Source of the DNA: an uncultured Candidatus Peribacteria bacterium
Lineage (GTDB): Bacteria; Patescibacteriota; Gracilibacteria; UBA1369; 2-02-FULL-48-14
NCBI GenBank assembly: GCA_964441065.1
Contig: CAYTWD010000001.1
Span: 73,285-137,284, forward strand
Direction of reading: 5' to 3'
DNA: 64,000 bases
The notes beneath the pieces are model-generated. The model was not told the DNA's origin and ran no database searches. It was given only the letters and a program-made list of their open reading frames with translations. Position 1 is the stretch's first letter; the number at the start of each line of letters is the position of its first letter. The translations under genes were made by a program, and so were the position numbers. This document shows, piece by piece, positions 18,737-54,218 of this stretch.

Positions 18737-19522
18737 CTAATCCATTGGTTTTGCCTGCTCCCAACAAAGAGGAAATATCACGTTTCTATAGAAAAAGGCG
18801 ATGTCAGCGTTTTCTATAAGCGTGCAGGTTATCTTACCCTCGGTAAACGATTTTATCGCAATCCAATTATTCCAAGAAAAAATACCGGCTTTCCATTCCA
18901 ATTTTTCGGGAAGTATGCGAACTTCAATCTTGTATTCTTTAGCCTTTTTATTAACTCTATTTGCAAAAGCACACGGTGGAAATATAAGTTTTGTATAAAT
19001 ATTTTTTGCTGCACGACGTTTGAAGTAATTTTCAAGATAATCCGGGCCAACGAGTTTTGAGAATAGGTCAACATAAGTAAATACGAGCACGCCACTTTTT
19101 GAATCCAGTGTTTCTTCAAGCATTTTCTTGAATCCATCCACATCTTCATAAAATTTTACAACAGGACGATTAGAATCCGGAGATTGAATGCTCGAAAGAA
19201 GCTGGCTTACATAATCAAGATTTGTTTTGATTAGTTTCAGCTCATTTTCTTTTTTTTGAACGAGATGATGAAGTGAATCCGGATTGTCCGCCACGATAAG
19301 GCGTTTTTTCCCTTTCCGAGTTTCATAAAGAAGCCCTTTTTTTATTAACTGCTCAATCGCACTATGAGCGGTTACCCGATTACATTTGAGTTGGCGCGCG
19401 ATTTCCTGAACCGTCGATCGACCAACTTTTAGTGAATGTATGTAAATTTCAGCTTCCCGTTGATTGCACCCAAATTGTTTAAGTAATGACTCAATGCGTA
19501 AAATATCGGATTCATTTAGCAT
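18737..19522 (-). CDS. TrmB-family HTH transcriptional regulator (paralog 1 of 3)
   Basis: 261 aa. The N-terminal winged HTH (REAEIYIHSLKVGRSTVQEIARQLKCNRVTAHSAIEQLIKKGLL) and the shared motif YE(D/G)(V/L)(D/N)G(F/I)K align with the ORFs at 39916 and 48596. Confidence 0.75.
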   Translation of the reverse strand: MLNESDILRIESLLKQFGCNQREAEIYIHSLKVGRSTVQEIARQLKCNRVTAHSAIEQLIKKGLLYETRKGKKRLIVADNPDSLHHLVQKKENELKLIKTNLDYVSQLLSSIQSPDSNRPVVKFYEDVDGFKKMLEETLDSKSGVLVFTYVDLFSKLVGPDYLENYFKRRAAKNIYTKLIFPPCAFANRVNKKAKEYKIEVRILPEKLEWKAGIFSWNNWIAIKSFTEGKITCTLIENADIAFFYRNVIFPLCWEQAKPMD

Positions 19523-19523
19523 A

Positions 19524-19544
19524 ATGTAGAATGATTTTCTACAT
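19524..19544. promoter_or_regulatory. Inverted repeat ATGTAGAA-tgatt-TTCTACAT abutting the TrmB-like start codon
   Basis: Perfect 8-bp arms in the divergent intergenic region between 19522 and 19688. A second inverted repeat, ATTTACATA (19590-19598) / TATGTAAAT (19620-19628), lies in the same region. Confidence 0.35.
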
Positions 19545-19687
19545 ATATTATATAGTCGAAATATATGAATTTCAATCTTAAATATTCAAATTTACATAAA
19601 TATTGTATATCAAATGTCATATGTAAATTGACATCATTTTTTCTAAGCCTAAAATGTTAACTTAAAACAAACTATTTAGACAAAGTT

Positions 19688-20680
19688 ATGAATATGACTC
19701 CAAAATCTCAATTTGTTCAAAAATTTCAAGAGCTGCTTCTAACAAGCCCACGATATAATCTTAAGCATGTAATGGCGGAAAACTGTGATTACGCAGACAC
19801 GGCGGTAAAATCTAAGAATTGTTATTACTCCTTCGGAGTTTTTTATTGCGAAGATGTATATTACAGTCGCTATTCCAGAAAATGCACCGATTGTAACGGT
19901 GTCACGTTTTGCGTTGGATGTGAATTGTGCACGGAATGCCTAGCTTGTTTAAATTGCTACCAATCCGCTTATTGCCAAAATTGCCAAGAATGTAAGGATT
20001 GTAAATTCTTGATTGATTGCTTCGGATGTAGCGAGTGTTTTGCTTGCGTTGGTCTTTATCAGAAAAAATATTGCATATTTAACGAGCAACTTACTAAAGA
20101 AGATTACACACAGCGTTTGTCTCAGATAGACTTAGCTCGTTCGGATCATCGTAAATTTATTCACCAAAGAATTGAAGAGCTTCGCAAAATTTCGCCGCAA
20201 CTCAATTTACATCAATTCCGAACTGAGGATTGTATAGGAGAAAATATAACCGAGAGTAAAAACTGCTACCAATGTTTTGACACTTTTGCTTCTGAAGATT
20301 GTTTGTATACAATCGAAGCAAACGCAAATAAAGATTGTTGTGATTTAACCGTATGCTTTGAAACAGAATTGTCATATAGCTGTGTTCAATCCCCGCTCTG
20401 CTATAACTGTAATTTTTTATTCCAAGTTGATAACTCCAGCAATTCCGAATTTTGCGCATATTCAAGGCGATTAAAAAATTGTTTTGGATGTGTTTACTTG
20501 GAAGATAAAGAATATTACATACTGAACAAGCCATATTCGCCGGAAAATTATGAGTGGGAAGTTGAGCGGATTAAAAATGAGTTAAAACAATCAAGCGAGT
20601 ATAATATGAAAATTTTTCTCGTTTCGGACTATGAAAAATGCAGAATTGAAACCGAAACGGATCCTGTTATTAAAATTTAA
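19688..20680 (+). CDS. Cys-rich repeat core protein, a stand-alone version of the central part of the 44888-54218 family
   Basis: 330 aa, 34 Cys by hand count. There are two Cys-ladder blocks (for example CTDCNGVTFCVGCELCTECLACLNCYQSAYCQNCQECKDCKFLIDCFGCSECFACVGL). They end in YCIFNEQLTKEDY and YYILNKPYSPENY, the same block terminators seen twice in each large paralog. Confidence 0.8.
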   Translation: MNMTPKSQFVQKFQELLLTSPRYNLKHVMAENCDYADTAVKSKNCYYSFGVFYCEDVYYSRYSRKCTDCNGVTFCVGCELCTECLACLNCYQSAYCQNCQECKDCKFLIDCFGCSECFACVGLYQKKYCIFNEQLTKEDYTQRLSQIDLARSDHRKFIHQRIEELRKISPQLNLHQFRTEDCIGENITESKNCYQCFDTFASEDCLYTIEANANKDCCDLTVCFETELSYSCVQSPLCYNCNFLFQVDNSSNSEFCAYSRRLKNCFGCVYLEDKEYYILNKPYSPENYEWEVERIKNELKQSSEYNMKIFLVSDYEKCRIETETDPVIKI

Positions 20681-20691
20681 TTTTGATTTTT

Positions 20692-20973
20692 ATGACTCAA
20701 ACTTTGCCAATCAATAGTGTGTGCCAAGAAGCTCAGTGTGGTAAAAACTTTATAGTTATTCCTCAAGAAATGAAGTTTTATGAGAACAAGAAATTGCCTT
20801 TGCCAGATTACTGTCCCGCTTGTAGGCATAAACAGAGAATGGCACTTAGAACCGAAAGAACTTTATATAAAAGAAGCTGTGACAAATGCCAACAGTCAAT
20901 TTTGTCTGTGTATCCACAAGAATCTCCTTACAAAATTTATTGTCAAAAGTGTTTTTGGGAAAATATAGGCTAA
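20692..20973 (+). CDS. Stand-alone double zinc-ribbon module, the same module that caps the large Cys-rich paralogs
   Basis: MTQTLPINSVCQEAQCGKNFIVIPQEMKFYENKKLPLPDYCPACRHKQRMALRTERTLYKRSCDKCQQSILSVYPQESPYKIYCQKCFWENIG. The ORF track starts at TTG 20683, but ATG 20692 is the more likely start. Confidence 0.75.
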   Translation: MTQTLPINSVCQEAQCGKNFIVIPQEMKFYENKKLPLPDYCPACRHKQRMALRTERTLYKRSCDKCQQSILSVYPQESPYKIYCQKCFWENIG

Positions 20974-23018
20974 CTTACAATAGCCTTAATCCTTCTCACT
21001 CCGCTCGAACTCGCTTCCTCTTTCACGATTTTAAAGGAACCAAGTTCGCCGGTGTGATCAACGTGAGGGCCGCCGCAAATTTCTTTCGAAAAATCTCCCA
21101 TAAAATAAACCTTAACTTTTCCGCCCAGTTCGCCTTCATATTTATCAACGAAAATTCCCGTCGCGTTAATTTTTCTAGCCTCTTCAACAGTCATTTCTTT
21201 GAAGGAAACAGGATAATCGGCCTTAATTGCATCGTTCACGAATTTCTCAACTTTTGCCAACTCCTCGGCGGTCAATTTTCTGTCGAAATTAAAATCAAAT
21301 CGAAGCCTTTCTTGAGTAATATTTGATCCGCGTTGCTCAATGTGATTTCCAAAAAGTCTGCGCAAACTTTCAAGCATCAAATGAGTTGCCGTGTGTAATT
21401 TTCTACTTTCATGACTGTGATCCGCAAGTCCACCGGCGAATTTCTGCTCGGCTCCTGCTCGCGATTTTTCTTGATGTGCTTGATAGGCTTTATCGAAGCC
21501 TTCGCGGTCAACTTCAACTCCGCGTTCTTTCATAATCTCCACAGTCATTTCAAGCGGAAAACCAAAACTTTCGTAATAAAGAAAAGCTCGATCTCCGCGC
21601 AAAGTCCAACCCGATTCCCTCAAAAAATTCGCTTTTTCTCTCACCAGCCGAAGAGAATCTTCGGCCAATTCCTTACCTGCGGCTTCCCCCTTAAATTCAG
21701 CGCGCAATTTTCCCATCAAAGGCCTTAAAGTTTTATTGAAAACTTCCAAACATTCCGCGGAAGAAATCACAGTTGAAACCGCATTCAGTGCTTTTTCAAG
21801 CTGTGAAACCGTATTCTCGCTACTCAAAATTTCAAGCGCTTCTTTCACTCTTTCCACATCTTTTTCAATTTCAATTTCGCCGGCCGTTAAAGCATTTTGA
21901 AACTGTTCTTCTTCTTTTTTCAACTCGTCTAAAATTCTTTTTTCATATTTAATAAGTTCCTTGTAATAATCTCCGTAAATTCCCAAAAACAGTCTTGCGA
22001 TTTGAACCGTAAAACCTTCTGAAATTCCCATTTTTCTGCCGTGCCTTATCGCTCGACGGATAATTTTTCTAAGTACATAGCCCTGATCATTATTCGATGG
22101 AGTGACTCCACGATCGTCGCCCAAAATAAATACAGCGGCGCGCAAATGATCAGCCAAAATTCTTCCACCAACTTCATCATAATTCTTCGCGATTTCTTTG
22201 ATTCTTTTTATTACCGGCTCAAAAAGTTCGGTCTCAAAAGGCGTTTTTTTCTCTTGTAAAAGCGCTGCGACTCGCTCAAGACCCATTCCCGTGTCCACAT
22301 TTTTTTGCTTCAAAGGTGTGAATGTCCCGTCTTCATTTTTGTTGTACTGCATGAAAACGTCGTTCCAAATTTCCACAAATCTTCCGCACTCGCAATTTGG
22401 ATGACACTCTCCACTCGCGATTGGATATTTTGCAATTGCCTCCGCCGAAGCCTCGGGTTTGTGTTCATTCATCGAAAGTCCCGGACATTTATCATAAAAC
22501 ATCTCGGTATCCGGACCGCATGGACCGGTTAAACCTGCAGGTCCCCACCAGTTTTTTTTCTTTTCATAAAAATAAACCGTCATCCCAAGTTCCCGCCAAA
22601 TTTCCGCCGCTTCGTCATCACGAGGCGCGTTTTCATCTCCTTCAAAACATGTCACCAAAATTCGATTTTTATCAATTCCCAACTCGTTCGTCAAAAATTC
22701 GTAAGACATTTTTATAGCCTCTTCTTTGAAATAATCTCCAAGCGACCAATTCCCCAGCATCTCAAAAAAAGTAAGATGTGATTCATCTCCAACTTCGTCA
22801 ATGTCATCCGTTCGCAAACATTTTTGAACATCCACAAGTCGCTTTCCTTCGGGATGTTTTTCTCCCAACAAATAAGGCACAAGCGGATGCATCCCCGCAG
22901 TCGTAAATAAAACAGTCGGATCATTTTCCGGAAGCAAACTTGAGCCTTTTATCTCTCTATGCTCATGTTTTTCAACGAAGAATTTAATGAATTTTTGTCT
23001 GAGTTCATCTGCTTTCAT
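20970..23018 (-). CDS. alaS: Alanine--tRNA ligase, short form ending after the editing domain
   Basis: 682 aa. FTTAGMHPLVPYLLG, NWSLGDYFK, the editing-domain HTATHLM and CGGPHV motifs are present. The protein ends ..GVRRIKAIVS, where canonical enzymes continue into the C-Ala domain. Confidence 0.9.
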   Translation of the reverse strand: MKADELRQKFIKFFVEKHEHREIKGSSLLPENDPTVLFTTAGMHPLVPYLLGEKHPEGKRLVDVQKCLRTDDIDEVGDESHLTFFEMLGNWSLGDYFKEEAIKMSYEFLTNELGIDKNRILVTCFEGDENAPRDDEAAEIWRELGMTVYFYEKKKNWWGPAGLTGPCGPDTEMFYDKCPGLSMNEHKPEASAEAIAKYPIASGECHPNCECGRFVEIWNDVFMQYNKNEDGTFTPLKQKNVDTGMGLERVAALLQEKKTPFETELFEPVIKRIKEIAKNYDEVGGRILADHLRAAVFILGDDRGVTPSNNDQGYVLRKIIRRAIRHGRKMGISEGFTVQIARLFLGIYGDYYKELIKYEKRILDELKKEEEQFQNALTAGEIEIEKDVERVKEALEILSSENTVSQLEKALNAVSTVISSAECLEVFNKTLRPLMGKLRAEFKGEAAGKELAEDSLRLVREKANFLRESGWTLRGDRAFLYYESFGFPLEMTVEIMKERGVEVDREGFDKAYQAHQEKSRAGAEQKFAGGLADHSHESRKLHTATHLMLESLRRLFGNHIEQRGSNITQERLRFDFNFDRKLTAEELAKVEKFVNDAIKADYPVSFKEMTVEEARKINATGIFVDKYEGELGGKVKVYFMGDFSKEICGGPHVDHTGELGSFKIVKEEASSSGVRRIKAIVS

Positions 23019-23030
23019 GTGACGATTTTA

Positions 23031-44887: not shown

Positions 44888-46501
44888 TCAGTAAATTTCA
44901 TTCAAATAACATGCTTCACAATACACTTTTTCAGGTCTATCCCAAAGTTGCCTTGGTCTTCTTCTCGCCATTCTATCCAAATGCCTTTCATCAGGACATT
45001 TTCTTGGAATTGGCAAATTCATCTTCCTGTAAAATGCCAATTCTTGAGGAATAATTTTATATAATTTGCCGCTACTTTCACACTTTAAAATCTGCTTTGT
45101 GATTTCATCACCAACTTCAGTTATATTATCTTGCATATTCAAATAAGCTCCTTGGTAATTATTTACTTTATCATCTTCATGCCATTTATAACTGCGCGCC
45201 AAAGCCTCCTCTTTACTAAGTGGAAACCATTCATTCGCCAAACTTTCATTATATGCGAATGCGCTTAGACTTATTGGAAAAAACTCACCCCATTCGCCCG
45301 TTTTTTTAAGATGCTCAATAATTTGAGGCAACAGTTTTTCATATTCTTCTTTGCTGTATTGCTTATTCAAAATGCAATATTGCTTCTGTTTTAAACCCAC
45401 ACATCCGAAGCAGTTCTTTGTTGAAAAACAATGATCACAATAACTAAGATCCGCACAATTACTCCAACATAAATTACAAAATTTTAAGTTATAAATATCA
45501 TATCCACAGGCCTGACATTCATAAGTTTCACTTGCATTCGATCCCCAATAACTGTGATCCATCGAATTCTTAACCTTAACCTCCAAATTATTTGAATATT
45601 TCACGTCTTCGCAATCAAAACACTCAAAAATTTCCACACAATTTCTGGAATTATTTATATAATCACCGCTAACATTTTCATTCATTGTCCCATAGAAATT
45701 TTTCACAATCATCGATTTTTTCATTTCCATAAATTTTTCAACGGCATCTTTATAAGATTCATATGAACCCAAATTCAATTCTCTTTTAAATTTTTCATAT
45801 TCTTCTTTTGTAACTTGTTTATTAAAAATATGATATTCAACATTTTTTAAACCCCAAGAAAAAATACAATTTTTCACACCTATACAATTTTTTAAAAACA
45901 TTGAATCCGAGCAATTTCTACATTCTTCAGAGTAAATTAAGTTATAACAATACTGGCAATCCACTGTTTCGTAGCAGAGTTCATCATGCAGAGCATTCTC
46001 ATTATCTATACAATCTTTGCAAAAATTTATCCAAGAACCGTAATAACAATCTTCGCAATGATTTGTTGAAAAAACTAAATAACAATTTTTATTTCTACTC
46101 GCGCAATTACAATATTGTGAATTTTCCATTGGCTGTTGTTGTTGCAATGCCAACCTCGGAACCTTGTTTCTAAGCTCCTCATATTGTTCAAAAAAACTGC
46201 GAGAAAAATCAAAATCCATTCCGTGGCTTAGTGGATCCCACTTATCGCTCCACCACTCTTCAATATCGTAAACAGGATATGGTTTATCGGTAGACGCTGA
46301 AGAAATAATTTGCTTCCCGCTCAAATCACATTTTCTATGATAAAGATGTCTTTCATTTCTAAACGCCAATCTTCTCCGCATTCTTTCTTCCGGACACAAA
46401 GTTGGCAAAGGAACTCCCATTTTTTCATAAAAAGCCTGATCTTCCTCAGAAATAACGAACTCTTTTCCCGAAACGGCACATGTTTTTTTAATTGAAGGCA
46501 T
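44888..46501 (-). CDS. Cys-rich double-zinc-ribbon-capped family protein, paralog P1
   Basis: 537 aa with the family architecture. The N-terminal ribbon ligands are degenerate (CAVSGK, CPEER). The last zinc knuckle is deleted at the C-terminus (..LWDRPEKVYCEACY). Confidence 0.8.
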   Translation of the reverse strand: MPSIKKTCAVSGKEFVISEEDQAFYEKMGVPLPTLCPEERMRRRLAFRNERHLYHRKCDLSGKQIISSASTDKPYPVYDIEEWWSDKWDPLSHGMDFDFSRSFFEQYEELRNKVPRLALQQQQPMENSQYCNCASRNKNCYLVFSTNHCEDCYYGSWINFCKDCIDNENALHDELCYETVDCQYCYNLIYSEECRNCSDSMFLKNCIGVKNCIFSWGLKNVEYHIFNKQVTKEEYEKFKRELNLGSYESYKDAVEKFMEMKKSMIVKNFYGTMNENVSGDYINNSRNCVEIFECFDCEDVKYSNNLEVKVKNSMDHSYWGSNASETYECQACGYDIYNLKFCNLCWSNCADLSYCDHCFSTKNCFGCVGLKQKQYCILNKQYSKEEYEKLLPQIIEHLKKTGEWGEFFPISLSAFAYNESLANEWFPLSKEEALARSYKWHEDDKVNNYQGAYLNMQDNITEVGDEITKQILKCESSGKLYKIIPQELAFYRKMNLPIPRKCPDERHLDRMARRRPRQLWDRPEKVYCEACYLNEIY

Positions 46502-48144
46502 TAGTAAACCAATTTTAAATAACAGTCGTCACAATATACTTTTTCTTGGCGTTCAGGTTCAAAAGTGCTTTCTATTTCAATCTGACAACCATAACATTTT
46601 CGTTTCCAAAGGCTTTGAGGGTTTCTCATTGAAAGTCTGTCTTTGTGCCTTTGATTTGGACATCGCAGAGGTATTGGCAACTTCATTTTTCTATAAAACT
46701 CCAACTCTTGTGGAATTAATTTATAAAGTTTCCCGCTTACTTCACATTTTAAAATTTGCTTTAAAATTTCGTCGCTAACTTCATTAATATTTTTTGGAAT
46801 TTCAGCATGTGGGCCTTGATATGAACTAATTTCATCCTCATCTTTCCAATGATAACCCAACTTTAAGGCCTCCTCTTTTTCCAGTGGAAAATATTCATTT
46901 GCAACAGTCTCGTTATATCCAAATGCAGATTTATTAATTGGAAAAAACTCACCCCATTCGCCGGTCTTCTTCATATGATCAATAATTCGTGCCACAAGTT
47001 TTTCGTATTCTTCTTTTGAATATTGTTTATTTAAAATGCAATACTCTGAATTTTTCATTCCACTGCATCCAAATAAGTTTTTTGAATTATGACAATTATG
47101 AGAGTAGAAACTATCAGATAGTTTATTGCAAAACATTGAGAAAAGCAGATTTCTATTTTGATATGCCGCCAAATATTCATAACAAAGTTCATTCTCCTCA
47201 GTGAAATTATTGTCGTAACAATCCTTCAAATCAACCACTTGCATACAATAGGCAACGTCTTCACATTTATCTGTAAAATACGAATTTTTAGCATTTTTTG
47301 ACTGAAAAATATAATTTCCGCTTACATTTTCCACATTTCTACTCTGCATAAATCTGTGAGGGATTTCCAATTTTAATTTCTGCAACTCAGTTTTTAATTT
47401 TTGAGTGACTTCGGGATCGCACAAATTCAATTTTCTTTTAAACTCCTCGTAATCTTCTTTACTTAATTGCTTGTTAAAAACGCAATATTGCTTTTTTCTA
47501 AGACCCGCGCATCCAATGCAGTCACTGCATCCTTGCAAATCATAACAATAAATCAGATGATCTGAAGTGTGACAGTCTTGGCAGTAAAAACACTCGTAAA
47601 GTTTTCTTGAATCTACACATTCATAAGAATACTGACATTCTCGAACGACTAATGTATCAAGGCATTCAAGTGAGTAATAAGGGGAACCATAATAACATTT
47701 GTCAGAATATACGGATCCAAAAATCAAATAAGAATCTTTCACATTACCAACGTAATTACAAAAACTGCTATTTTCCGAATTCCATACTGACAGTGCAAGT
47801 TGCGGCACGTCTTGATAAAGTTCCTTAAATTGTTCAAAAAAAGGTCGATTAAAATCAAAATCACGCCCGTAATCGAGAGGATCCCACTTGTCACTCCACC
47901 ATTCATCAACATCATAAACGGTAATCTCACCGTCTTCCGAATAATTTGAAATTAAACTTTTTCCACTTAGGCCGGATTTTCTGTGATAAAGACTGCGTTC
48001 GTTTCTATGTGCGTATCTTCTCCGTCTTCTCTCCTCCGGACACAAAGTTGGCAATGGAACTCTTACTTTTTCATAAAAAGCTTGATCCGCATCTGTGATC
48101 ACGAACTCTTTTCCTGAAACGGTACATGTTTTTTTAATTTCCAT
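46501..48144 (-). CDS. Cys-rich double-zinc-ribbon-capped family protein, paralog P2
   Basis: 547 aa, 30 Cys by hand count. A TAATG junction joins it to P1, and it starts 3 nt after the csaA stop. Confidence 0.8.
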   Translation of the reverse strand: MEIKKTCTVSGKEFVITDADQAFYEKVRVPLPTLCPEERRRRRYAHRNERSLYHRKSGLSGKSLISNYSEDGEITVYDVDEWWSDKWDPLDYGRDFDFNRPFFEQFKELYQDVPQLALSVWNSENSSFCNYVGNVKDSYLIFGSVYSDKCYYGSPYYSLECLDTLVVRECQYSYECVDSRKLYECFYCQDCHTSDHLIYCYDLQGCSDCIGCAGLRKKQYCVFNKQLSKEDYEEFKRKLNLCDPEVTQKLKTELQKLKLEIPHRFMQSRNVENVSGNYIFQSKNAKNSYFTDKCEDVAYCMQVVDLKDCYDNNFTEENELCYEYLAAYQNRNLLFSMFCNKLSDSFYSHNCHNSKNLFGCSGMKNSEYCILNKQYSKEEYEKLVARIIDHMKKTGEWGEFFPINKSAFGYNETVANEYFPLEKEEALKLGYHWKDEDEISSYQGPHAEIPKNINEVSDEILKQILKCEVSGKLYKLIPQELEFYRKMKLPIPLRCPNQRHKDRLSMRNPQSLWKRKCYGCQIEIESTFEPERQEKVYCDDCYLKLVY

Positions 48145-48147
48145 AAT

Positions 48148-48480
48148 TTAAAATAATTTTGAACCCAAAGGCACTTCTTTATCCGGTTGCGCCAAAATAA
48201 CATCACCATTTTCATCAGGAAATCCAAGGGTCAGAACTTCGGAAATGAATGGACCGATTTGACGAGGTGGAAAGTTGGTGACGCCCATAACCATTCTCCC
48301 AATTAAATTCTCTTTTGAATAATGTTTTGTTATTTGAGCGGATGATTTTTTCAAACCAATTTCAGCCCCAAAATCGATCGTAAGTTTATAAGCCGGCTTT
48401 CTGGCCTCGGGGAAGCTTTCAACTTCCACAATTCGCCCCGCATGTATGTCTAATTTATTGAAATCTTCAATCGTCGTCAT
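48148..48480 (-). CDS. csaA: CsaA-type tRNA-binding domain protein (Trbp111/EMAPII-like OB fold)
   Basis: 110 aa. FNKLDIHAGRIVEVESFPEARKPAYKLTIDFG.EIG.KKSSAQIT......LIGRMVMGVTNFPPRQIG.F.SEVL.LG aligns along its whole length with B. subtilis CsaA as I remember it. Confidence 0.8.
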   Translation of the reverse strand: MTTIEDFNKLDIHAGRIVEVESFPEARKPAYKLTIDFGAEIGLKKSSAQITKHYSKENLIGRMVMGVTNFPPRQIGPFISEVLTLGFPDENGDVILAQPDKEVPLGSKLF

Positions 48481-48551
48481 AATTATTTTTTAATAGAGCC
48501 AAATTATAGCATTTCTTGTAAAATTGTACATAATTGGAGCTTGTAATTTGT

Positions 48552-48569
48552 ATTATAACAGGTTATAAT
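48552..48569. promoter_or_regulatory. Inverted repeat ATTATAAC-ag-GTTATAAT in the divergent csaA / TrmB-like intergenic region
   Basis: Perfect 8-bp arms, 27 nt upstream of the TrmB-like ATG at 48596. The right arm also reads as a -10-like TATAAT. Confidence 0.35.
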
Positions 48570-48595
48570 AACTGTAGAAACTTTTTTACAACAAT

Positions 48596-49354
48596 ATGCT
48601 TTCTGAAGAATTAATTAGGCTCGGACTGTCAAAAGAAGAGGCGAAAGTCTATTTAACTGTCTTGGAATTGGGAGGCTCTTTTGCAAGCGCGATTGCCAGA
48701 AAATCGAATACGCCGCGTGTAAATTGTTATTATATTTTGGAAAGCCTGAGAGAGAAGGGACTGATAACTTCAAATTTAAAAGGAAATGTAAAATTCTTTG
48801 TTGCTGAACCGCCTCAAGTTTTTGTGAATCAAGTTGAAGAAAAATTTATTCGAGCGCAGAAAATTCTTCCCGAATTGCTATCAGTAACTAACGCTCTCGC
48901 CTTCAAGCCAATTATCCGTTCTTATGAAGGCCTTGACGGTATTAAACAAATTTTTGAGCAGACTCTTGAGGCAAAATCAGAAGTGCTGGGCTACACAAAT
49001 CTTGAAGCGCTGGCTAATCTTTTGCCTGATTACTTACCCGGATATATTAAAAAAATGGTGAAAAAAAGAATAAAGATTCGTCTACTTTCACCTTCAACCG
49101 ATGCCGCAAGAAAATTTATTAAAAAATTCTATCCGAAAAATTTCCCCGAAGAATTAGTCGAAATTTTATTTGTAAACCCAAATGAATTCGCCTTCGAAAA
49201 TCAAATCTCAATTTACGATAACTTCGTCGCAATCATGTCTCTTAATCCGCAGGAATTGATGGGTGTCCATATGCAATCAGGTGTATACGCGCGTACTCAA
49301 AAGGCGATTTTTGACCTTTCTTGGCTAGGCGCGACTTCATTCGTGGCTCAGTAA
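48596..49354 (+). CDS. TrmB-family HTH transcriptional regulator (paralog 3 of 3)
   Basis: 252 aa. EEAKVYLTVLELGGSFASAIARKSNTPRVNCYYILESLREKGLI and SYEGLDGIKQIF are present. Confidence 0.75.
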   Translation: MLSEELIRLGLSKEEAKVYLTVLELGGSFASAIARKSNTPRVNCYYILESLREKGLITSNLKGNVKFFVAEPPQVFVNQVEEKFIRAQKILPELLSVTNALAFKPIIRSYEGLDGIKQIFEQTLEAKSEVLGYTNLEALANLLPDYLPGYIKKMVKKRIKIRLLSPSTDAARKFIKKFYPKNFPEELVEILFVNPNEFAFENQISIYDNFVAIMSLNPQELMGVHMQSGVYARTQKAIFDLSWLGATSFVAQ

Positions 49355-51000
49355 ACCTCCGCCAAATAACAAGATTCACAGTACACTTTTTCAGGTCTAT
49401 CCGGCGAATAACTGGTCTCAATTTCCTTCGAGCATTTCGCACAATTTCTTGTCCAAGTTCTATTTGGATTTCTGGAATGAATTCGCATTTCATTTCTAGT
49501 TTCAGGAGCAAAATGAGGGATTGGAATACCAATTTGTCTATATAATTTCAACTCTTGTGGAGTAATTCTGTAAGGTCTTCCGGTTTTTTCACATGTAAAA
49601 GTTTGAGACAAAATTTCATCGCTTACATCGTGAATTGAATCAGGAATATTCTGTGTTTTTATGTCACGAATTTCTTCATCATGCCATTTTAAACCCTCAG
49701 CTAAAATCTCTTCTTTTGTTCTAGGAACAAAATCTTGAGCAACAGTTTCATTATAGGCAAAATAAGAATATTTCATTGGCAAAAATTCTCCCCATTCACC
49801 GGTTTTTCGCATATGTTCAATTATTCTTGCTTTCAAAATTTCATATTCCTCTTTTGAATATTGTTTATTAAAAATACAGTAATTTAAATGATGCATATTT
49901 GAGCATCCAAAAACATTATTACAGTATGCGACGGTGTCTGAATAAAGAACATTGCTTCCGTACCAAATGAATGAAGAGAACGCGCCATTTGTAACTCCCG
50001 GAACTCCAATCACCTCATATTCCAACTCTGATTTATGACCAATATGACTACAACTCATAGCGTCTTTCAAAACCCATCCGCCCAAAAATACATCCTTTAA
50101 ATCTTCAGCAGGACCATAAATATCGAAACAATTTTCACAATTTTTATCATCTTTAAGTTTATCGCCAACGCAATTTTCACAATTTAAAATATCCGCGTAT
50201 AAAACGGGTACGCTTAGTTTAAATTTATTAAATTCCTCTCGCATTTTTTCAACACCGCTCCAAGAATCAAGTCGCATTTCTTTTAATTTTGAAGAGTATT
50301 CTTCCGGTGAATATTGCTTATTGAAAATTTGATATTTTTCCCCACGAAGCCCAACGCATCCAATACAATTTTCACAACTTCTACAATCAAATAAAAATGC
50401 AGAATCGCGGCAATTATGGCTATTTTGAGCGTATTTTAAGTTGTAACAATGCGAACAATCTATACAATCGTAACTTAATTCAGCATGATTAACCCAGTAC
50501 AAATCGGAAACGTCTCTACACCAAAAACAAAAAACTGAATTTAATGCGTCTTCATTAAAATCTCCACCGAAAACCAAGTAAGAATTTTTATTGTCTGTTG
50601 TTAAATTGCAATATTCACTATTCTCACCGTTAGAATTCAAAAGTGAGAGATGAGGAACGGCTTTTCGCAACTCATCAAATTGTTCAAAAAAAGGCCTGTT
50701 AAAATCAAAATCTCGCCCGTAATCCAGTGGATTCCACTTATCGCTCCACCAAACATCTTGCGCGAGAACTTTGATTTTTTTATCGGGTGAATAAATCGAA
50801 ATTATTTCTTTACCTGTTAAATCGCATTTATCTTTGTAAATTTTCCTCTCATTTCTGTGTGTAAATCGACGTTGATGTCTGTGCTCAATACACAAATTCG
50901 GCAGAGGAAATCCGCCCATTTTCTTCAAATGTTCCTGCTCCCATTCATTCACAATGAATTCTTTTGAGCAAATTCGGCAGTTTTGTTTGATTTCTTTCAT
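49348..51000 (-). CDS. Cys-rich double-zinc-ribbon-capped family protein, paralog P3
   Basis: 550 aa with the family architecture. The N-terminal ribbon is CRIC...CIEH, and the first C-terminal ribbon is degenerate (CEKTG ... FAPETR). Confidence 0.8.
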   Translation of the reverse strand: MKEIKQNCRICSKEFIVNEWEQEHLKKMGGFPLPNLCIEHRHQRRFTHRNERKIYKDKCDLTGKEIISIYSPDKKIKVLAQDVWWSDKWNPLDYGRDFDFNRPFFEQFDELRKAVPHLSLLNSNGENSEYCNLTTDNKNSYLVFGGDFNEDALNSVFCFWCRDVSDLYWVNHAELSYDCIDCSHCYNLKYAQNSHNCRDSAFLFDCRSCENCIGCVGLRGEKYQIFNKQYSPEEYSSKLKEMRLDSWSGVEKMREEFNKFKLSVPVLYADILNCENCVGDKLKDDKNCENCFDIYGPAEDLKDVFLGGWVLKDAMSCSHIGHKSELEYEVIGVPGVTNGAFSSFIWYGSNVLYSDTVAYCNNVFGCSNMHHLNYCIFNKQYSKEEYEILKARIIEHMRKTGEWGEFLPMKYSYFAYNETVAQDFVPRTKEEILAEGLKWHDEEIRDIKTQNIPDSIHDVSDEILSQTFTCEKTGRPYRITPQELKLYRQIGIPIPHFAPETRNEMRIHSRNPNRTWTRNCAKCSKEIETSYSPDRPEKVYCESCYLAEVY

Positions 51001-52634
51001 TGTATTTCAGCCAGATAACATTTTTCACAATACACTTTCTCTTTTCGTTCTGGAGCATATGTTGTTTTAATTTCTACTCCACATTTCAAGCAATTTCGAT
51101 CCCAAAGTTTTCGTGGGTTTTCAAGAGAAAGTCTTTCTTTGTGTCTGCATTCAAAGCATTTTTTTGGTATTGGTAAGCCCATTTTTCGGTAGAATTTTAA
51201 TTCTTGCGGAATAATTTTGTAATTTTTATGACACACAATACAGGCCAAAATTTCGTTTAAAATATTGTCACCAACTAAACCAATATCATTTGGAATTGAA
51301 TAAGTTTGCGCTAAATAAGATTTTTTATCTTCATCACGCCATTGCATATTTCTGCTCAAAGCTTCATCCTTGCTCAGCGGATAAAAATCGTTAGCTTTTG
51401 ATTCGTTGTATCCAAAAACACTTAATTCGAAAGGAAAAAATTCACCGTATTCATTTTTGCTAAGCATTTTCTCTTTTATTTTCACCAACATTTTTTTGTA
51501 CTCATTTTCACTATATTGTTTGTTTAATATGCAGAATTTATTTCCTTTCAAACTCATGCAACCAAAGGAATCGTGTGAGCTTTGGCAATTATCACAATAT
51601 TCAAGATTACTCGACTGGTAACAAAGATTGCAGAATTTACTAAAAGTTAGATCGATTGCCGCCTGCGCTTCATATAAACATTCACCGTTAGCAATTCTTG
51701 TATTGTCCATTGAGTCTTTCATTTCCATACAGTCCAAAAGATACCTGCCGTCTTCCACGTTCCATACATTATAGCAGTGACTCGCATTCTTTGAATTCAC
51801 AATGTAATTACCGGTACAATTTTCGCTGTTTTTATCCCAAAAATATTTCACAGGTATTTCAAGCCGCAGTTGTTTATATTTTTCTAAAAACTCATTTCTA
51901 AAATCTGGATTAGAATTTAATTTTTTTAGAGTTTTTTCATATTCTTCTTTTGAAACCTCTGCATTTAAAATCATAAATTCTTTTCTTCTCAAGCCAGCGC
52001 AACCGATCAAATTATTTGAAGCACGACAGTCAAAGCAAAGATATGAAAAAGTTAAATTCAGGCAGTTTTCCAGATAAGAGGAGTTATAACAATTATCGGA
52101 ATCGTTACAAAAGTAACAATTTTCAACATTTGAACACATGTAAAGATCCATACTGTCCTTACATATTTGGGCGAAGTCGACATAATAAACATCCTCACAT
52201 ATTCTTAATGAATTCCCCATATAACAATTTCTATTTTTCCCACTATGAACCGTGTAATCCGAATTTTCGCTCATGGTTTGATACATCGCAATTCTAGGTA
52301 CTTTCGACCGCATTTCAGCAAATTGTTCAAAAAATGGTCTGTCGAAATCAAAATCAATTCCGTATTTAATCGGGTCAAATTTATCACTCAAAAAACAATC
52401 TTTGCAGTACACCGGAAAGGGCTTATCACTCGAATAAATTGAAATAATAGTATTTTGGCACATGTCACAAGAACGTTTGTAAAAAATTCTGTCATTTCTA
52501 AAAACCAATCGTCTTTGATTTCTACAATCCGGGCAAAGTGACGGAGTGGGAACTTCAAATTTCTTAAAAAATTCAAAATCCCCAGATTCAAGATTGAAGT
52601 TTTGCCTGCACACTTTACAGCTTTTTGTTTCCAT
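50997..52634 (-). CDS. Cys-rich double-zinc-ribbon-capped family protein, paralog P4
   Basis: 545 aa, 37 Cys by hand count. All four terminal CxxC...CxxC ribbons are intact. ATGA junction with P3. Confidence 0.8.
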   Translation of the reverse strand: METKSCKVCRQNFNLESGDFEFFKKFEVPTPSLCPDCRNQRRLVFRNDRIFYKRSCDMCQNTIISIYSSDKPFPVYCKDCFLSDKFDPIKYGIDFDFDRPFFEQFAEMRSKVPRIAMYQTMSENSDYTVHSGKNRNCYMGNSLRICEDVYYVDFAQICKDSMDLYMCSNVENCYFCNDSDNCYNSSYLENCLNLTFSYLCFDCRASNNLIGCAGLRRKEFMILNAEVSKEEYEKTLKKLNSNPDFRNEFLEKYKQLRLEIPVKYFWDKNSENCTGNYIVNSKNASHCYNVWNVEDGRYLLDCMEMKDSMDNTRIANGECLYEAQAAIDLTFSKFCNLCYQSSNLEYCDNCQSSHDSFGCMSLKGNKFCILNKQYSENEYKKMLVKIKEKMLSKNEYGEFFPFELSVFGYNESKANDFYPLSKDEALSRNMQWRDEDKKSYLAQTYSIPNDIGLVGDNILNEILACIVCHKNYKIIPQELKFYRKMGLPIPKKCFECRHKERLSLENPRKLWDRNCLKCGVEIKTTYAPERKEKVYCEKCYLAEIQ

Positions 52635-54218
52635 TTAGTATACAGAAGCCAAATAACACGTCTCGCAGTATACAATCTCGGGTCTGTCTGGGGAATAGCT
52701 GGTTTTTATTTCTGTTCCGCATTTTGCGCATGCGCGGGACCAAAGTTTTCTGGGATTTTTCCAACGTAATAATTCTTTTTCTCTGCATTCGTGACAGCAA
52801 GTCGGATTTTGTTGGCCTAATTTATCGTAAAGTGCTTTTTCCTGCTTGATTATTTGGAATTTTTTACCGCATTCAACACAATTTAATGCGCTGATTTCAT
52901 TTGGAATTATATTTACATCTTTCCACGCATAATTTTTTGCCAAACATTCTTCTTTTGATAAAGTAAAATAATCTTGAGCGATACTTTCGTTATATGCGTG
53001 AGGTGAAATAAAAGCCGGGAAGAACTCGCCATATTCTCCGGTTTTTCGCATGTGTTCAATTATTTGCAAACGCAATTTTTCATATTCTTCTTTTGAATAT
53101 TTTTTGTTCAAAATGCAGTATTCGTTTTTTGTATGGAAACCGTCACAGCCAAACGAATTGGATAGATAAAAACATGAATATAAATACTCTGAAAAAGGTG
53201 AGGCGCAAGTACAATACGAGAATTTTGTCATATAATTTTTTTCACCGCCGCTACACATTTCGTAACAAAGTTCTATTTCTTTATCGTGCATGCACATATC
53301 CATGCAATCTTTAACACCCGCGCATTCCACCAAATATTTTGAATCCTGAACCTCAAAGCTATCAAAAGACTCATAAGTATTTTTACAATTATATAAGTAA
53401 TCTCCGGTTGAATTTTCACAATTGAACTGAACCACGGCGCGTTTTGGAAGTATTGAAGAAAATGCCATAAATTCCTTAAGAATTTCATCGGGATTTTTTG
53501 ATTTGTATTCATTCATAATTTTCTCAAATTCTTCCTTGCCAACTTCTTTATTTTTAAAACAGTAATTTTTATTTCTGAGCCCGAAACACATAAAAGAATT
53601 TTGCATGTTTGAACAATCCTCCAAGTATGATGAAAATGAACAAGATTTGCAATTTAATAAAAAGCCGGAAAAATAACAGGAATCACAATTTGTTGAATTA
53701 AAAACCAGCTCGCATTTGTTAAGAATATTACTGTTAATACAATCTTTGCAGTTCTGACTTTTTCTTGTGTAAATACAGCCTTCCGATAAATATGTGCCTG
53801 GACTCATGTATGTATTTTTTGAGAAAGCCAAAAATGAATTATAGTCTGAATTTTCATTATTTAATTGAAGCAAATTGGCTTTTGGGAGAGCATTCATTAA
53901 CTCTTTAAATTGTTCAAAAAAAGATCGATTAAAATCAAAATCTCGGCCGTAACTTTCAGGATTCCATTTTTCACTCCACCAACAATTTGTGCAGTAAACG
54001 GGAAAAACCGTATCAGCATCAAAAAAAGAAATCATGTTTTTTTTGCAAAAATCACATTCTCTTTTGTACAGATTTTTCTCGTTTCTCATCATCAACCTTC
54101 TTTGAAGTCGGCATTCTCCGCAAAATTTTGGCTCAGGAACGTTAATTTTTTCATAAAAAGAAGAATCTCCTTCTGTAATTTCAAATTCTCTCGAGCAATT
54201 TTTACAATTTTTAATCAT
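52635..54218 (-). CDS. Cys-rich double-zinc-ribbon-capped family protein, paralog P5
   Basis: 527 aa. All four terminal ribbons are intact. Its stop codon directly abuts the P4 start (TAAATG). Confidence 0.8.
   Translation of the reverse strand: MIKNCKNCSREFEITEGDSSFYEKINVPEPKFCGECRLQRRLMMRNEKNLYKRECDFCKKNMISFFDADTVFPVYCTNCWWSEKWNPESYGRDFDFNRSFFEQFKELMNALPKANLLQLNNENSDYNSFLAFSKNTYMSPGTYLSEGCIYTRKSQNCKDCINSNILNKCELVFNSTNCDSCYFSGFLLNCKSCSFSSYLEDCSNMQNSFMCFGLRNKNYCFKNKEVGKEEFEKIMNEYKSKNPDEILKEFMAFSSILPKRAVVQFNCENSTGDYLYNCKNTYESFDSFEVQDSKYLVECAGVKDCMDMCMHDKEIELCYEMCSGGEKNYMTKFSYCTCASPFSEYLYSCFYLSNSFGCDGFHTKNEYCILNKKYSKEEYEKLRLQIIEHMRKTGEYGEFFPAFISPHAYNESIAQDYFTLSKEECLAKNYAWKDVNIIPNEISALNCVECGKKFQIIKQEKALYDKLGQQNPTCCHECREKELLRWKNPRKLWSRACAKCGTEIKTSYSPDRPEIVYCETCYLASVY

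What the first reader, a model, noticed from the sequence alone, without database searches (positions are those of the whole stretch)
19688..20973. A sixth family member exists as a natural split: Cys-ladder core (330 aa) followed by the zinc-ribbon cap (93 aa) as separate genes
The ORF at 19688-20680 consists of the two Cys-ladder blocks, ending in YCIFNEQLTKEDY and YYILNKPYSPENY, with no ribbon caps. The next ORF, 20692-20973, starts 11 nt after the core's stop codon. It is exactly one two-ribbon cap (C-x4-C...FYENKKLPLPDYCPACRHKQR...YKRSCDKC...YCQKC).

In the five large paralogs the same pieces are fused, with the cap at both ends. This fused-versus-split relationship shows that cap and core are separable domains that work together. 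The gene order here is core first and cap second, so the split is not a simple frameshift of a P-type gene. The core has 34 Cys in 330 aa (about 10 percent) and is the most Cys-dense member.
Basis: seen in the sequence. Interest (0 to 1): 0.72.

Follow-up and report, generated by a model that had tools for sequence, protein, structure and literature searches.

The report
Split Cys-rich solenoid plus zinc-finger genes
Two adjacent genes in a Peregrinibacteria (CPR) genome encode the body and the zinc-finger end-piece of a protein that is made as one chain in some relatives, and this split is real, old and conserved, in a large protein family whose function is still unknown.

Summary
ORF 19688-20680 (330 aa, 34 Cys) matches the centre of five tandem ~540-aa paralogs at 44888-54218 (E 1e-36 to 1e-40). 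ORF 20692-20973 (93 aa) matches both of their zinc-finger ends. The split is not an artefact: 30 of 33 informative species genomes have the same core-then-cap arrangement. The cap always has its own ATG, in all three frame relations, and nine loci have ATGA overlaps. An independent assembly is identical across the junction, and both genes are under strong purifying selection. Fused 401-429-aa core+cap orthologs exist, scattered among split ones. All 14 keep a Met where the split cap gene starts, so they look like secondary re-fusions of an ancestrally split pair. A TrmB-like regulator with a GTAGAA-N5-TTCTAC palindrome is conserved divergently upstream. A confident AlphaFold model of a window paralog (pLDDT 89) shows the 'Cys ladder' as the interior stack of a beta-solenoid with 12-residue coils. 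The cap is two zinc fingers. The family has about 6,000 clusters, appears confined to CPR bacteria, and has no Pfam model for the core, no solved structure and no literature. The core-cap complex is inferred, not shown, and the function is unknown.

The parts
18737..19522 (-). TrmB-family winged-helix regulator, transcribed divergently from the core gene
   Evidence: Pfam PF01978 TrmB, E = 2.5e-8. An ortholog (50-85% identity) sits on the opposite strand upstream of the core in 27 related loci. MiaB, AlaRS and MOSC are not conserved there.
19524..19544 (.). Perfect palindrome ATGTAGAA-N5-TTCTACAT, the likely operator of the TrmB-like regulator. It lies between that gene's -10 box and its ATG.
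   Evidence: 8-nt arms, 100% complementary. It is the only exact copy in the window. GTAGAA-N5-TTCTAC is exact at the same position in 13 related loci and has 1-2 mismatches in 8 more.
19547..19575 (-). Promoter-like site for the regulator gene (TTGAAA-17-TATAAT)
   Evidence: 11 of 12 consensus matches. This is a consensus match only.
19628..19655 (+). Promoter-like site for the core-cap operon (TTGACA-16-TAAAAT)
   Evidence: 11 of 12 consensus matches, 32 nt upstream of the core ATG. An AATTGAC(A/G) element recurs upstream of the core in many related loci. No promoter-like site was found between core and cap.
19688..20680 (+). Core gene: 330 aa, two tandem homologous modules (helix + Cys-lined beta-solenoid + YxIxN..S.E(E/D)Y end motif). 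Acidic, pI 5.0.
   Evidence: There are 214 homologs, all unnamed or 'hypothetical'. No Pfam, NCBIfam or PDB sequence hit. dN = 0.09 against dS ~2 versus L001.
19775..20092 (+). Solenoid block 1 (about aa 30-135). It has 18 Cys in residues 66-120 at strict 3-residue spacing, which makes five 12-residue coils with 3-4 inward-facing Cys each.
   Evidence: Cys autocorrelation is non-zero almost only at multiples of 3. The 12-residue coil geometry comes from the paralog model. These Cys are 58-100% conserved in orthologs.
20219..20557 (+). Solenoid block 2 (about aa 178-290), a sparser Cys ladder
   Evidence: Homologous to block 1. The equivalent block in the Pd model has pLDDT 93-98 and 12-residue coils.
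20678..20694 (+). Junction: core stop TAA, an 11-nt AT-rich spacer, then the cap ATG in a different frame
   Evidence: It is identical in an independent Logan assembly. Equivalent junctions occur in 30 other genomes, with the cap start -4 to +62 nt from the core stop (+106 in one), including 9 ATGA overlaps. This genome has almost no Shine-Dalgarno motifs.
20692..20973 (+). Cap gene: 93 aa, basic (pI 8.95), two zinc fingers. Its 3' end overlaps the convergent alanyl-tRNA synthetase gene (20970-23018, minus strand) by 4 nt.
   Evidence: There are 37 stand-alone 89-121-aa homologs, including an exact match on an NCBI contig. pN = 0.088 against pS = 0.80 versus L001.
20722..20823 (+). Cap finger 1: C11-x4-C16 ... 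C41-P-x-C44-R, treble-clef type
   Evidence: Pfam PF13451 zf_Tbcl scores 23.1 bits against a cutoff of 24. Orthologous caps carry PF13451. The model shows a hairpin plus helix. It superimposes on phage 'zinc-ribbon domain' proteins at rmsd 0.7-0.8 A.
20878..20952 (+). Cap finger 2: C63-x2-C66-x17-C84-x2-C87
   Evidence: The pattern matches TIGR04272/PF23477. The paralog C-caps score 21-23 bits, below the cutoff of 27. A cap profile hits the second LIM finger of CRP1/CRP2 at E = 0.005.
44888..54218 (-). Array of five fused paralogs with the architecture cap-core-cap (527-550 aa). It is interrupted by a second TrmB-like gene on the plus strand (48596-49354).
   Evidence: AlphaFold model of 50997-52634: pLDDT 89.1, pTM 0.89. 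Similar arrays of 5-7 copies with TrmB-like genes occur in L043-L045.

Best explanation
The two ORFs are a genuine, conserved two-gene operon that encodes the two halves of one functional protein.

1. The core (330 aa) is two tandem beta-solenoid modules. The coils have 12 residues, and positions 1, 4, 7 and 10 point inward. Those positions are filled by a Cys/Ser stack, which is the 'Cys ladder'.
2. The cap (93 aa) is a basic double zinc finger: a PF13451-like treble clef followed by a CxxC-x17-CxxC finger.
3. Both genes are transcribed from one promoter upstream of the core.
4. The cap is translated from its own ATG, 11 nt after the core stop. Translation is probably coupled to termination of the core, which would give roughly equal amounts of the two products.
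5. The basic cap then binds the acidic core non-covalently. The result is the same architecture that some relatives make as a single 401-429-aa chain, and that the five P-type paralogs make with a cap at each end.
6. The split is old. It is probably ancestral for this ortholog clade, with several later re-fusions.
7. The pair belongs to a conserved three-part module: a divergently transcribed TrmB-like regulator, its GTAGAA-N5-TTCTAC operator, and the core-cap operon.

What is shown: homology, conservation of the split, purifying selection on both genes, the existence of fused orthologs, the conserved regulator and palindrome, and the solenoid and zinc-finger folds (from models).

What is inferred: co-transcription, translational coupling, the physical core-cap complex, the regulator-operator relationship, and the direction of evolution.

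The cellular role is unknown. My best guess is a cytoplasmic scaffold or binding protein. The zinc-finger module would contact a partner, possibly nucleic acid, and the Cys/Ser stack would be structural.
For: Homology of both pieces to the paralogs:
- The core hits at E = 1e-36 to 1e-40, and the cap hits both termini.

Conservation of the split:
- 30 of 33 informative species genomes are split and 3 are fused.
- All three frame relations occur (3, 8 and 19 loci).
- Every cap has its own ATG, -4 to +62 nt from the core stop (+106 in one locus).
- Nine loci have an ATGA overlap, and others have TAAtcATG or TGAtATG.
- A second subfamily also has an ATGA-overlapped split pair.

Not an artefact:
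- An independent Logan assembly is 100% identical over 3,040 bp including the junction.
- The NCBI record already calls the exact 93-aa protein.

Selection:
- Against L001, the core has dN = 0.091 and dS ~2. The cap has pN = 0.088 and pS = 0.80.

Fused orthologs:
- They are 401-429 aa and are interleaved with split forms on the core tree.
- All 14 have a Met 4-10 residues before the first cap Cys. None of the P-types shown has one there.

Expression signals:
- There is a single strong promoter-like site upstream of the core and none between the two genes.
- The genome lacks Shine-Dalgarno motifs in general, so the cap lacking one is normal.

Charge complementarity:
- The core has pI 5.0 and net charge -12. 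The cap has pI 8.95 and net charge +5.5.
- The pattern holds in 31 split loci.

Fold:
- The paralog model has pLDDT 89.1 and pTM 0.89, with 12-residue coils at pLDDT 93-98.
- The natural fused ortholog model has pTM 0.78. A high pTM for the whole chain suggests the caps are docked in a defined position.
- Cys spacing falls almost only on multiples of 3.

Regulator and operator.
Against: - No direct evidence of a core-cap contact. Model coordinates and PAE were not available, and no multimer prediction could be run.
- Core-only genes without an adjacent cap exist (L037, L039), so a core can apparently function alone in some lineages.
- The Cys-ladder blocks of the fused-ortholog model are low confidence, pLDDT 53-62. 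Block 1 of the paralog model is also weak, 54-71.
- The tree is neighbour-joining without support values, so the number and direction of fusion/fission events is uncertain.
- The promoter and operator assignments are consensus and conservation arguments only. The total number of promoter-like sites in the region is no higher than in shuffled sequence.
- No functional annotation exists anywhere in the family.
Confidence: 0.75

Rival explanations
1. The split is an assembly or sequencing error, or a recent inactivating frameshift, so the locus is a pseudogene of a fused core-cap gene.
For: Fused 401-429-aa orthologs exist. The two ORFs are in different frames and only 11 nt apart.
Against: - The same split is found in 30 other species genomes, with varied frames and spacers, and the cap always has an ATG.
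- An independent assembly has an identical junction.
- Purifying selection on the cap is as strong as on the core, and all 8 Cys are conserved.
- The core ends exactly where its split orthologs end.
Confidence: 0.02
2. The two ORFs are joined during translation, by a programmed ribosomal frameshift or stop-codon readthrough, to make a single fused protein.
For: The spacer is short. Three loci have the cap in frame with the core after a single stop codon (L004, L007, L009). Fused orthologs show that a single chain is functional.
Against: - The required shift differs between genomes (0, +1 or +2), and the spacing varies from -4 to +106 nt.
- In the window, the cap frame is open only from 20674, and there is no canonical slippery heptamer at ATT AAA ATT TAA.
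- Every cap has its own ATG.
- ATGA overlaps are the signature of termination-reinitiation, not of recoding.
Confidence: 0.03
3. Core and cap are adjacent and co-expressed but do not form a stable complex. The cap would be an independent small zinc-finger protein, for example a nucleic-acid binder or a factor shared by several solenoid paralogs, that merely travels with the core gene.
For: - Core-only genes lack any adjacent cap.
- Stand-alone zinc-ribbon proteins of the same fold occur in phages.
- The cap is basic, and JGI names it a 'Zn ribbon nucleic-acid-binding protein'.
Against: - All 30 informative split loci in the ortholog group keep the cap immediately downstream.
- The genes have fused repeatedly into one chain.
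- The five paralogs carry the same domain covalently at both ends.
- The high whole-chain pTM of the fused models argues for a fixed position of the cap.
Confidence: 0.12
4. This rival concerns the direction of evolution only. The fused core-cap gene is ancestral for the clade, and the split arose many times independently at a linker that already contained a Met.
For: The P-type paralogs are fused. Gene fission by a stop or frameshift mutation is mechanistically easy. The junctions are very diverse.
Against: - Split forms dominate, and fused forms are scattered in at least 8 places among them. Many more fissions than fusions would therefore be needed.
- All 14 fused orthologs keep a Met at the cap-start position in an otherwise poorly conserved linker, and no P-type shown has it.
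Confidence: 0.2

Closest known systems
Gene fission/fusion ('Rosetta stone') pairs with translational coupling, a general phenomenon in prokaryotic genomes
   Same: - Two adjacent genes correspond to consecutive segments of a single gene in other genomes.
- The stop and start codons overlap or lie close together.
- Both halves are under purifying selection.
   Different: - Both states of the same ortholog are sampled densely here: 30 split and 3 fused species genomes, plus 14 fused proteins.
- The fused forms retain the internal start Met, which points to repeated re-fusion rather than a single event.
Pfam PF13451 (zf_Tbcl, 'probable treble clef domain') and PF23477/TIGR04272 (CxxC-x17-CxxC domain), two uncharacterised zinc-finger families
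   Same: - Cap finger 1 has the CxxC...CPxCR pattern and scores 23.1 bits against PF13451.
- Finger 2 has exactly CxxC-x17-CxxC.
- Orthologous caps and the paralog caps carry these assignments.
   Different: - The window cap is just below the PF13451 cutoff and gives no reported hit to PF23477.
- Neither family has a known function, so membership says nothing about mechanism.
Beetle antifreeze protein TmAFP (12-residue-coil beta-helix with an internal Cys ladder). Recalled from my own knowledge (Liou et al. 2000, PDB 1EZG), not retrieved by any search here.
   Same: A narrow beta-solenoid with 12 residues per coil, with regularly spaced Cys filling the interior.
   Different: - TmAFP is small, secreted and disulfide-bonded, and has a TxT ice-binding face and a TCTxSxxCxxAx repeat.
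- These proteins have no signal peptide and no TCT motif.
- They have up to four inward Cys per coil, two solenoids per chain, and zinc-finger modules.
- Foldseek did not return TmAFP.
Left-handed beta-helix (hexapeptide-repeat) proteins: LpxA, LpxD, GlmU, gamma-carbonic anhydrase
   Same: These are the only structural neighbours Foldseek found for the solenoid, and they share the general parallel beta-helix architecture.
   Different: - The matches are weak: E = 6e-4 to 5e-2, TM at most 0.23, rmsd 11-20 A.
- There is no Hexapep Pfam hit.
- The coils have 12 residues, not 18, and no [LIV]-G-x4 motif is present.
LIM-domain second zinc finger (CRP1/CRP2/MLP)
   Same: Cap finger 2 aligns with the second LIM finger: C-x2-C-x17-C-x2-C with a conserved (I/V)YC (E = 0.005).
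   Different: - The match is marginal.
- The two cap fingers are separated by an 18-residue helix rather than the 2-residue LIM spacer.
- Finger 1 is not LIM-like.

Membership tests
Gene-fission (split-gene) pair of a fused ortholog | The two adjacent ORFs are homologous to consecutive, non-overlapping segments of single-chain proteins in other genomes | tested here: met
   The 401-429-aa orthologs align end to end with core + cap. The P-type paralogs contain both pieces.
Gene-fission (split-gene) pair of a fused ortholog | Both halves are intact and under purifying selection, so the locus is not a decaying pseudogene | tested here: met
   Core dN = 0.091 against dS ~2. Cap pN = 0.088 against pS = 0.80. 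The split is conserved in 30 genomes.
Gene-fission (split-gene) pair of a fused ortholog | The two products associate physically | not testable with these tools
   No multimer prediction, model coordinates or PAE were available. There is only indirect support from repeated fusion, charge complementarity and high whole-chain pTM.
Pfam PF13451 zf_Tbcl | Score at or above the gathering threshold (24 bits) | tested here: inconclusive
   The window cap scores 23.1 bits, E = 7.2e-5, which is 0.9 bit short. Many orthologous caps at 62-74% identity carry a precomputed PF13451 hit.
PF23477 zf_Tbcl_2 / TIGR04272 CxxC-x17-CxxC | CxxC-x17-CxxC spacing | tested here: met
   C63-x2-C66-x17-C84-x2-C87, read directly from the sequence.
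PF23477 zf_Tbcl_2 / TIGR04272 CxxC-x17-CxxC | HMM score at or above the curated cutoff (27 / 36 bits) | tested here: not met
   No hit is reported for the cap. The paralog C-caps score 21-23 bits (Pfam) and 17-19 bits (TIGR04272).
LIM domain | Two zinc fingers joined by a 2-residue spacer with the C2HC-C4 ligand pattern, and a Pfam LIM score of at least 22.9 bits | tested here: not met
   LIM scores 11.9 bits for the cap. The fingers are 18 residues apart. Only finger 2 resembles a LIM half.
Left-handed beta-helix / hexapeptide repeat (PF00132) | Hexapeptide [LIV]-G-x4 repeats giving 18-residue coils, with a Pfam Hexapep hit | tested here: not met
   No Pfam hit at E <= 1. The model has 12-residue coils. 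Foldseek TM is at most 0.23.
TmAFP-type 12-residue beta-helix antifreeze proteins | 12-residue coils with internal Cys | tested here: met
   The DSSP pattern repeats every 12 residues at pLDDT 93-98, and Cys/small residues occupy positions 1, 4, 7 and 10. This rests on a model only.
TmAFP-type 12-residue beta-helix antifreeze proteins | TCTxSxxCxxAx repeat with a TxT ice-binding face, in a secreted, disulfide-bonded protein | tested here: not met
   No such motif appears in any of the seven window proteins, and their N-termini show no signal-peptide-like sequence (sequences). The disulfide state cannot be tested here.
Metallothionein | Small (<10 kDa), about 30% Cys, with few or no aromatic residues | tested here: not met
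   The core is 330 aa, 10.3% Cys overall and rich in Tyr and Phe. Only residues 66-120 reach 33% Cys. Ser commonly replaces ladder Cys in relatives.
Programmed ribosomal frameshift site | A conserved slippery sequence and a constant frame relation between the two ORFs | tested here: not met
   All three frame relations occur, the spacers are variable, and there is no slippery heptamer.

The most novel reading that the evidence does not exclude
In the split/fused ortholog clade, the first solenoid has five consecutive 12-residue coils in which 3-4 of the four inward-pointing positions are Cys. That is 18 Cys within residues 66-120, 58-100% conserved among orthologs. The protein is cytoplasmic and comes from a probably anaerobic CPR bacterium, so these Cys may not be a passive packing stack or disulfides. 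They could instead coordinate a linear file of metal ions or iron-sulfur units along the solenoid axis, making a protein-sheathed metal chain used for storage, buffering or electron conduction. The separately encoded zinc-finger subunit would then act as a detachable end-piece, and the TrmB-like protein as the dedicated regulator. This would parallel the divergent smtB-smtA metallothionein arrangement, which I cite from my own knowledge.
Probability: 0.08. Interest if true: 0.85.

Novelty: new variant of a known kind. Interest (0 to 1): 0.45.

Why it matters
- **A dark protein family.** It has about 6,000 clusters at 50% identity. A single small CPR genome carries 6-8 copies, roughly 1% of its coding capacity. 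There is no Pfam model for the core, no solved structure and no literature.
- **Evidence for separate folding units.** The natural split, and its repeated re-fusion, is the strongest available evidence that the zinc-finger module and the solenoid body fold separately yet act together.
- **A ready construct.** The split marks a domain boundary at which the two pieces could be expressed separately for biochemistry and structure determination.
- **Testable handles.** The conserved TrmB-like regulator and its operator are a handle on when the system is expressed. The Cys-lined 12-residue solenoid is an unusual cytoplasmic fold worth solving.
- **Limits.** Gene fission itself is ordinary, and the split does not reveal the function.

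Tried and rejected
- **Genetic code 25 (TGA = Gly), as in some Gracilibacteria.** Irrelevant here. Both stops are TAA, the two ORFs are in different frames, and long ORFs read normally with table 11.
- **Curated families for the core.** Pfam, NCBIfam and PADLOC gave nothing for it. The only PADLOC hits were generic winged-helix matches for the regulator.
- **PDB sequence search.** Nothing for the core. The paralog and the cap profile gave only marginal LIM hits.
- **Foldseek with the fused-ortholog model (pLDDT 70.8).** No meaningful hit. The confident paralog model gave only weak left-handed beta-helix neighbours.
- **RNA genes.** No tRNA or Rfam hit in the window.
- **A second conserved operator at the core promoter.** The window has an ATGTCA-N9-TGACAT palindrome over the -35 box, but no conserved palindrome was seen there across loci. 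Only a conserved TTGAC -35-like element was found.
- **Spread of the GTAGAA palindrome.** It is not found upstream of the other TrmB-like genes or the paralog array in the window.
- **Literature.** The cysteine-rich proteins described for Peribacteria (PMC4736985) are large, secreted and a different family. No paper mentions PF13451 or TIGR04272.
- **Nine-residue (RTX-like) repeat.** I first read the ladder this way. The confident model showed 12-residue coils instead.
Full report
**1. The observation**

The two ORFs are as described.
- The core runs 19688-20680 on the plus strand. It encodes 330 aa and stops at TAA 20678-20680.
- Eleven AT-rich bases later, ATG 20692 opens a 93-aa ORF ending at 20973. 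It is in a different reading frame.
- The core has 34 Cys (10.3%). That is more than any of five long Cys-rich ORFs lying in tandem on the minus strand at 44888-54218, which have 5.1-7.8%.

BLASTP ties the pieces together.
- The core aligns with residues ~100-400 of all five paralogs at 29-33% identity, E = 2e-36 to 2e-40.
- The 93-aa protein aligns with both the first ~85 and the last ~85 residues of each, E = 1e-12 to 1e-21.
- The two halves of the core are homologous to each other (30% identity over 137 residues, E = 1e-16), so there really are 'two Cys-ladder blocks'.

The homology is far more than shared Cys composition.

**2. Is the split real?**

The organism is a CPR bacterium. The homologs come from Candidatus Peregrinibacteria, Peribacteria and 'Gracilibacteria' metagenome-assembled genomes.

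I scanned one genome per species with a core profile and obtained 36 loci. For each I located the core stop and the downstream cap.
- Of 33 informative ortholog loci, 30 are split and 3 are fused.
- The cap lies in frame 0 (3 loci), +1 (8 loci) or +2 (19 loci) relative to the core.
- The cap always has its own ATG, from -4 to +62 nt relative to the end of the core stop (+106 nt in one locus).
- Nine loci have the ATGA stop/start overlap, and others have TAAtcATG, TGAtcATG or TGAtATG.

No sequencing or assembly error could produce this pattern.

Further support:
- A Logan assembly of run SRR16481182 is 100% identical to window 20256-23295, junction included.
- The NCBI record on a 141-kb contig already calls the exact 93-aa protein.
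- Both genes are under strong purifying selection against the closest genome, L001. The core has dN = 0.091 and dS ~2. The cap has pN = 0.088 and pS = 0.80.
- All eight cap Cys are conserved in nearly all loci.

A programmed frameshift or readthrough is excluded by the variable frame relation and spacer, and by the absence of a slippery site. The missing Shine-Dalgarno motif before the cap is not informative, because almost no gene in the window has one.

**3. Fused versions of the same ortholog**

About 14 orthologs at 51-65% identity are 401-429 aa long and consist of core plus a C-terminal cap in one chain. They have no N-terminal cap, so they are the true fused counterparts of this pair, closer than P1-P5.

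- On a neighbour-joining tree of the core columns, they sit in at least eight separate places among split forms (no support values).
- All 14 carry a Met 4-10 residues before the first cap Cys, in a linker that is otherwise poorly conserved. That is exactly where the split cap genes start.
- None of the P-type proteins shown has a Met there.

The simplest reading is that the split is ancestral for this clade and the fused genes are repeated secondary re-fusions. The retained Met could alternatively mean that internal initiation persists. The reverse direction, many independent fissions, is not excluded.

A second, more distant subfamily also contains an ATGA-overlapped split pair (312 + 91 aa), inside a P-type array in L045. 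Core-only genes without any neighbouring cap also exist (L037, and three in L039).

The family is therefore modular, with four architectures: cap-core-cap, core-cap, core + cap as two genes, and core alone.

**4. What the pieces are**

Curated libraries:
- The core has no Pfam, NCBIfam, PADLOC or PDB-sequence match.
- The cap scores just below threshold on PF13451 zf_Tbcl (23.1 against 24 bits).
- The paralog C-caps score below threshold on PF23477/TIGR04272, the CxxC-x17-CxxC domain.
- Many orthologous caps do carry PF13451, and JGI calls some of them 'Zn ribbon nucleic-acid-binding protein'.
- A cap profile weakly matches the second finger of LIM domains (E = 0.005).

Structure models:
- An AlphaFold model of a natural fused ortholog was middling: pLDDT 70.8, pTM 0.78, with the ladder blocks at 53-62. 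It found nothing in the PDB.
- A model of window paralog 50997-52634, built on 140 sequences, is confident: pLDDT 89.1, pTM 0.89.
- Its second ladder block (residues ~275-370, pLDDT 93-98) is a beta-solenoid whose DSSP pattern repeats every 12 residues. Small or Cys residues occupy positions 1, 4, 7 and 10 of each coil.

This explains why Cys-Cys distances in the core fall almost only on multiples of three. In the window core, residues 66-120 form five such coils with 3-4 inward Cys each.

The ladder is a family-wide feature. Cys makes up 10.6% of core columns in orthologs and 8.8% in P-types. Ser is the commonest substitute, which favours a structural stack of small residues over obligatory metal ligands.

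Foldseek results:
- For the solenoid it finds only weak neighbours, all left-handed beta-helix enzymes (E = 6e-4 to 5e-2, TM at most 0.23).
- The cap's ribbon superimposes on stand-alone phage 'zinc-ribbon domain' proteins (probability 0.94-0.98, rmsd 0.7-0.8 A over 43 residues).

Charges: the core is acidic (pI 5.0, net -12) and the cap basic (pI 8.95, net +5.5). The contrast holds across 31 split loci.

**5. Context**

The only conserved neighbour is a TrmB-family regulator (18737-19522, minus strand).
- It is present divergently upstream of the core in 27 loci at 50-85% identity.
- MiaB, AlaRS and MOSC are not conserved there.

A perfect palindrome, ATGTAGAA-N5-TTCTACAT (19524-19544), lies between the regulator's -10-like box and its ATG.
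- GTAGAA-N5-TTCTAC is exact at the same place in 13 other loci and has 1-2 mismatches in 8 more.
- These genomes share only 50-60% protein identity, so such conservation in non-coding DNA marks a functional site, most likely the regulator's operator.

Promoter-like sites:
- TTGACA-16-TAAAAT at 19628-19655 precedes the core, with 11 of 12 consensus matches.
- TTGAAA-17-TATAAT at 19575-19547 precedes the regulator, also 11 of 12.
- No promoter-like site lies between core and cap.

Two further TrmB-like paralogs are in the window. One is embedded in the paralog array. Arrays of 5-7 P-type genes with TrmB-like genes recur in other genomes.

**6. Mechanism proposed**

The core and cap are made from one transcript. 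The cap is translated by reinitiation or coupling at the core stop, and the two products assemble non-covalently into the architecture of the fused forms.

This is inferred from:
- strict co-occurrence of the two genes;
- the coupling signatures at the junctions;
- repeated fusion into a single chain;
- charge complementarity;
- the high whole-chain pTM of the fused models.

It is not demonstrated. The cellular function remains unknown. I favour a cytoplasmic solenoid scaffold whose zinc-finger module contacts a partner, possibly nucleic acid, under the control of the dedicated regulator.

**7. Comparison and novelty**

Gene fission with translational coupling is a well-known phenomenon. The solenoid resembles the 12-residue Cys-ladder helix of beetle antifreeze protein only in geometry (my own knowledge, not a search result). 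It fails the defining features of hexapeptide-repeat, LIM and metallothionein families.

The family itself is large: 5,972 cluster representatives at E <= 1e-3 and 2,085 at E <= 1e-30, plus 5,148 hits for one paralog. It is uncharacterised, and I found no paper describing it.

I rate the finding a new variant of a known kind. It is solid and useful for dissecting a dark CPR family, but the split itself is not surprising.

Noticed in passing
window 19524-19544; same position in L001, L002, L004, L005, L007-L010, L013, L014, L023, L028, L034: The palindrome GTAGAA-N5-TTCTAC abuts the start of the TrmB-like gene. It is conserved exactly across genomes that share only 50-60% protein identity, so it is a likely operator. 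It is absent upstream of the other two TrmB-like genes in the window.
   Followed up: partly
window 18737-19522 (-), 39916-40659 (+), 48596-49354 (+): There are three paralogous TrmB-family regulators (25-33% identical to each other). Two of them sit next to Cys-ladder genes. TrmB-like genes also accompany the family in L039, L043, L044 and L045. Each Cys-ladder gene cluster seems to come with its own regulator.
   Followed up: partly
window 42599-44842 (-); L044 10768-13002: A VirD4/TraG-like coupling-protein ATPase (T4SS-DNA_transf, DUF87, TrwB) lies directly downstream of the last P-type paralog, on the same strand with a 45-nt gap. The same arrangement recurs in L044. This could be a shared operon or simply inherited synteny.
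   Followed up: no
window paralogs 44888-46501, 46501-48144, 49348-51000 (N- and C-terminal caps); caps in L023 and L030: Zinc ligands have been lost repeatedly in some caps. A recurring CD(L/F)(S/T)G(K/E) variant replaces CxxC in finger 2. Some caps therefore probably fold without one or both zinc ions.
   Followed up: no
L039 820-6972 (GCA_018655275.1, JABIJZ010000002.1): This cluster holds three core-only paralogs (314, 323 and 328 aa) with no caps. Between them are a 149-aa membrane protein, two small Cys-rich proteins (159 and 186 aa) and two TrmB-like genes.
   Followed up: no
L036 4001-8167 (CAWGXL010000011.1): Four or more core-like segments follow each other head to tail with no cap hit nearby. 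This may be a multi-solenoid polyprotein or a tandem run of core-only genes.
   Followed up: no
L045 4309-5519 (-): A split pair from a different subfamily (312-aa core + 91-aa cap, ATGA overlap) sits inside an array of six P-type genes. The core is 44% identical to P0098 and 34% to the window core.
   Followed up: partly
whole window (43 gene starts examined): Almost no gene has a Shine-Dalgarno-like motif in the 25 nt before its start codon. Upstream regions are AT-rich instead, which suggests SD-independent initiation in this organism.
   Followed up: no
window 20970-20973: The cap gene and the convergent alanyl-tRNA synthetase gene (20970-23018, minus strand) overlap by 4 nt at their 3' ends. 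A terminator-like hairpin spans the overlap on the minus strand (20986-20967). At 682 aa this AlaRS is short for a bacterial enzyme.
   Followed up: no
window 19613-19635: A second palindrome, ATGTCA-N9-TGACAT, overlaps the -35 box of the core promoter-like site. I did not find it conserved in the related loci.
   Followed up: partly
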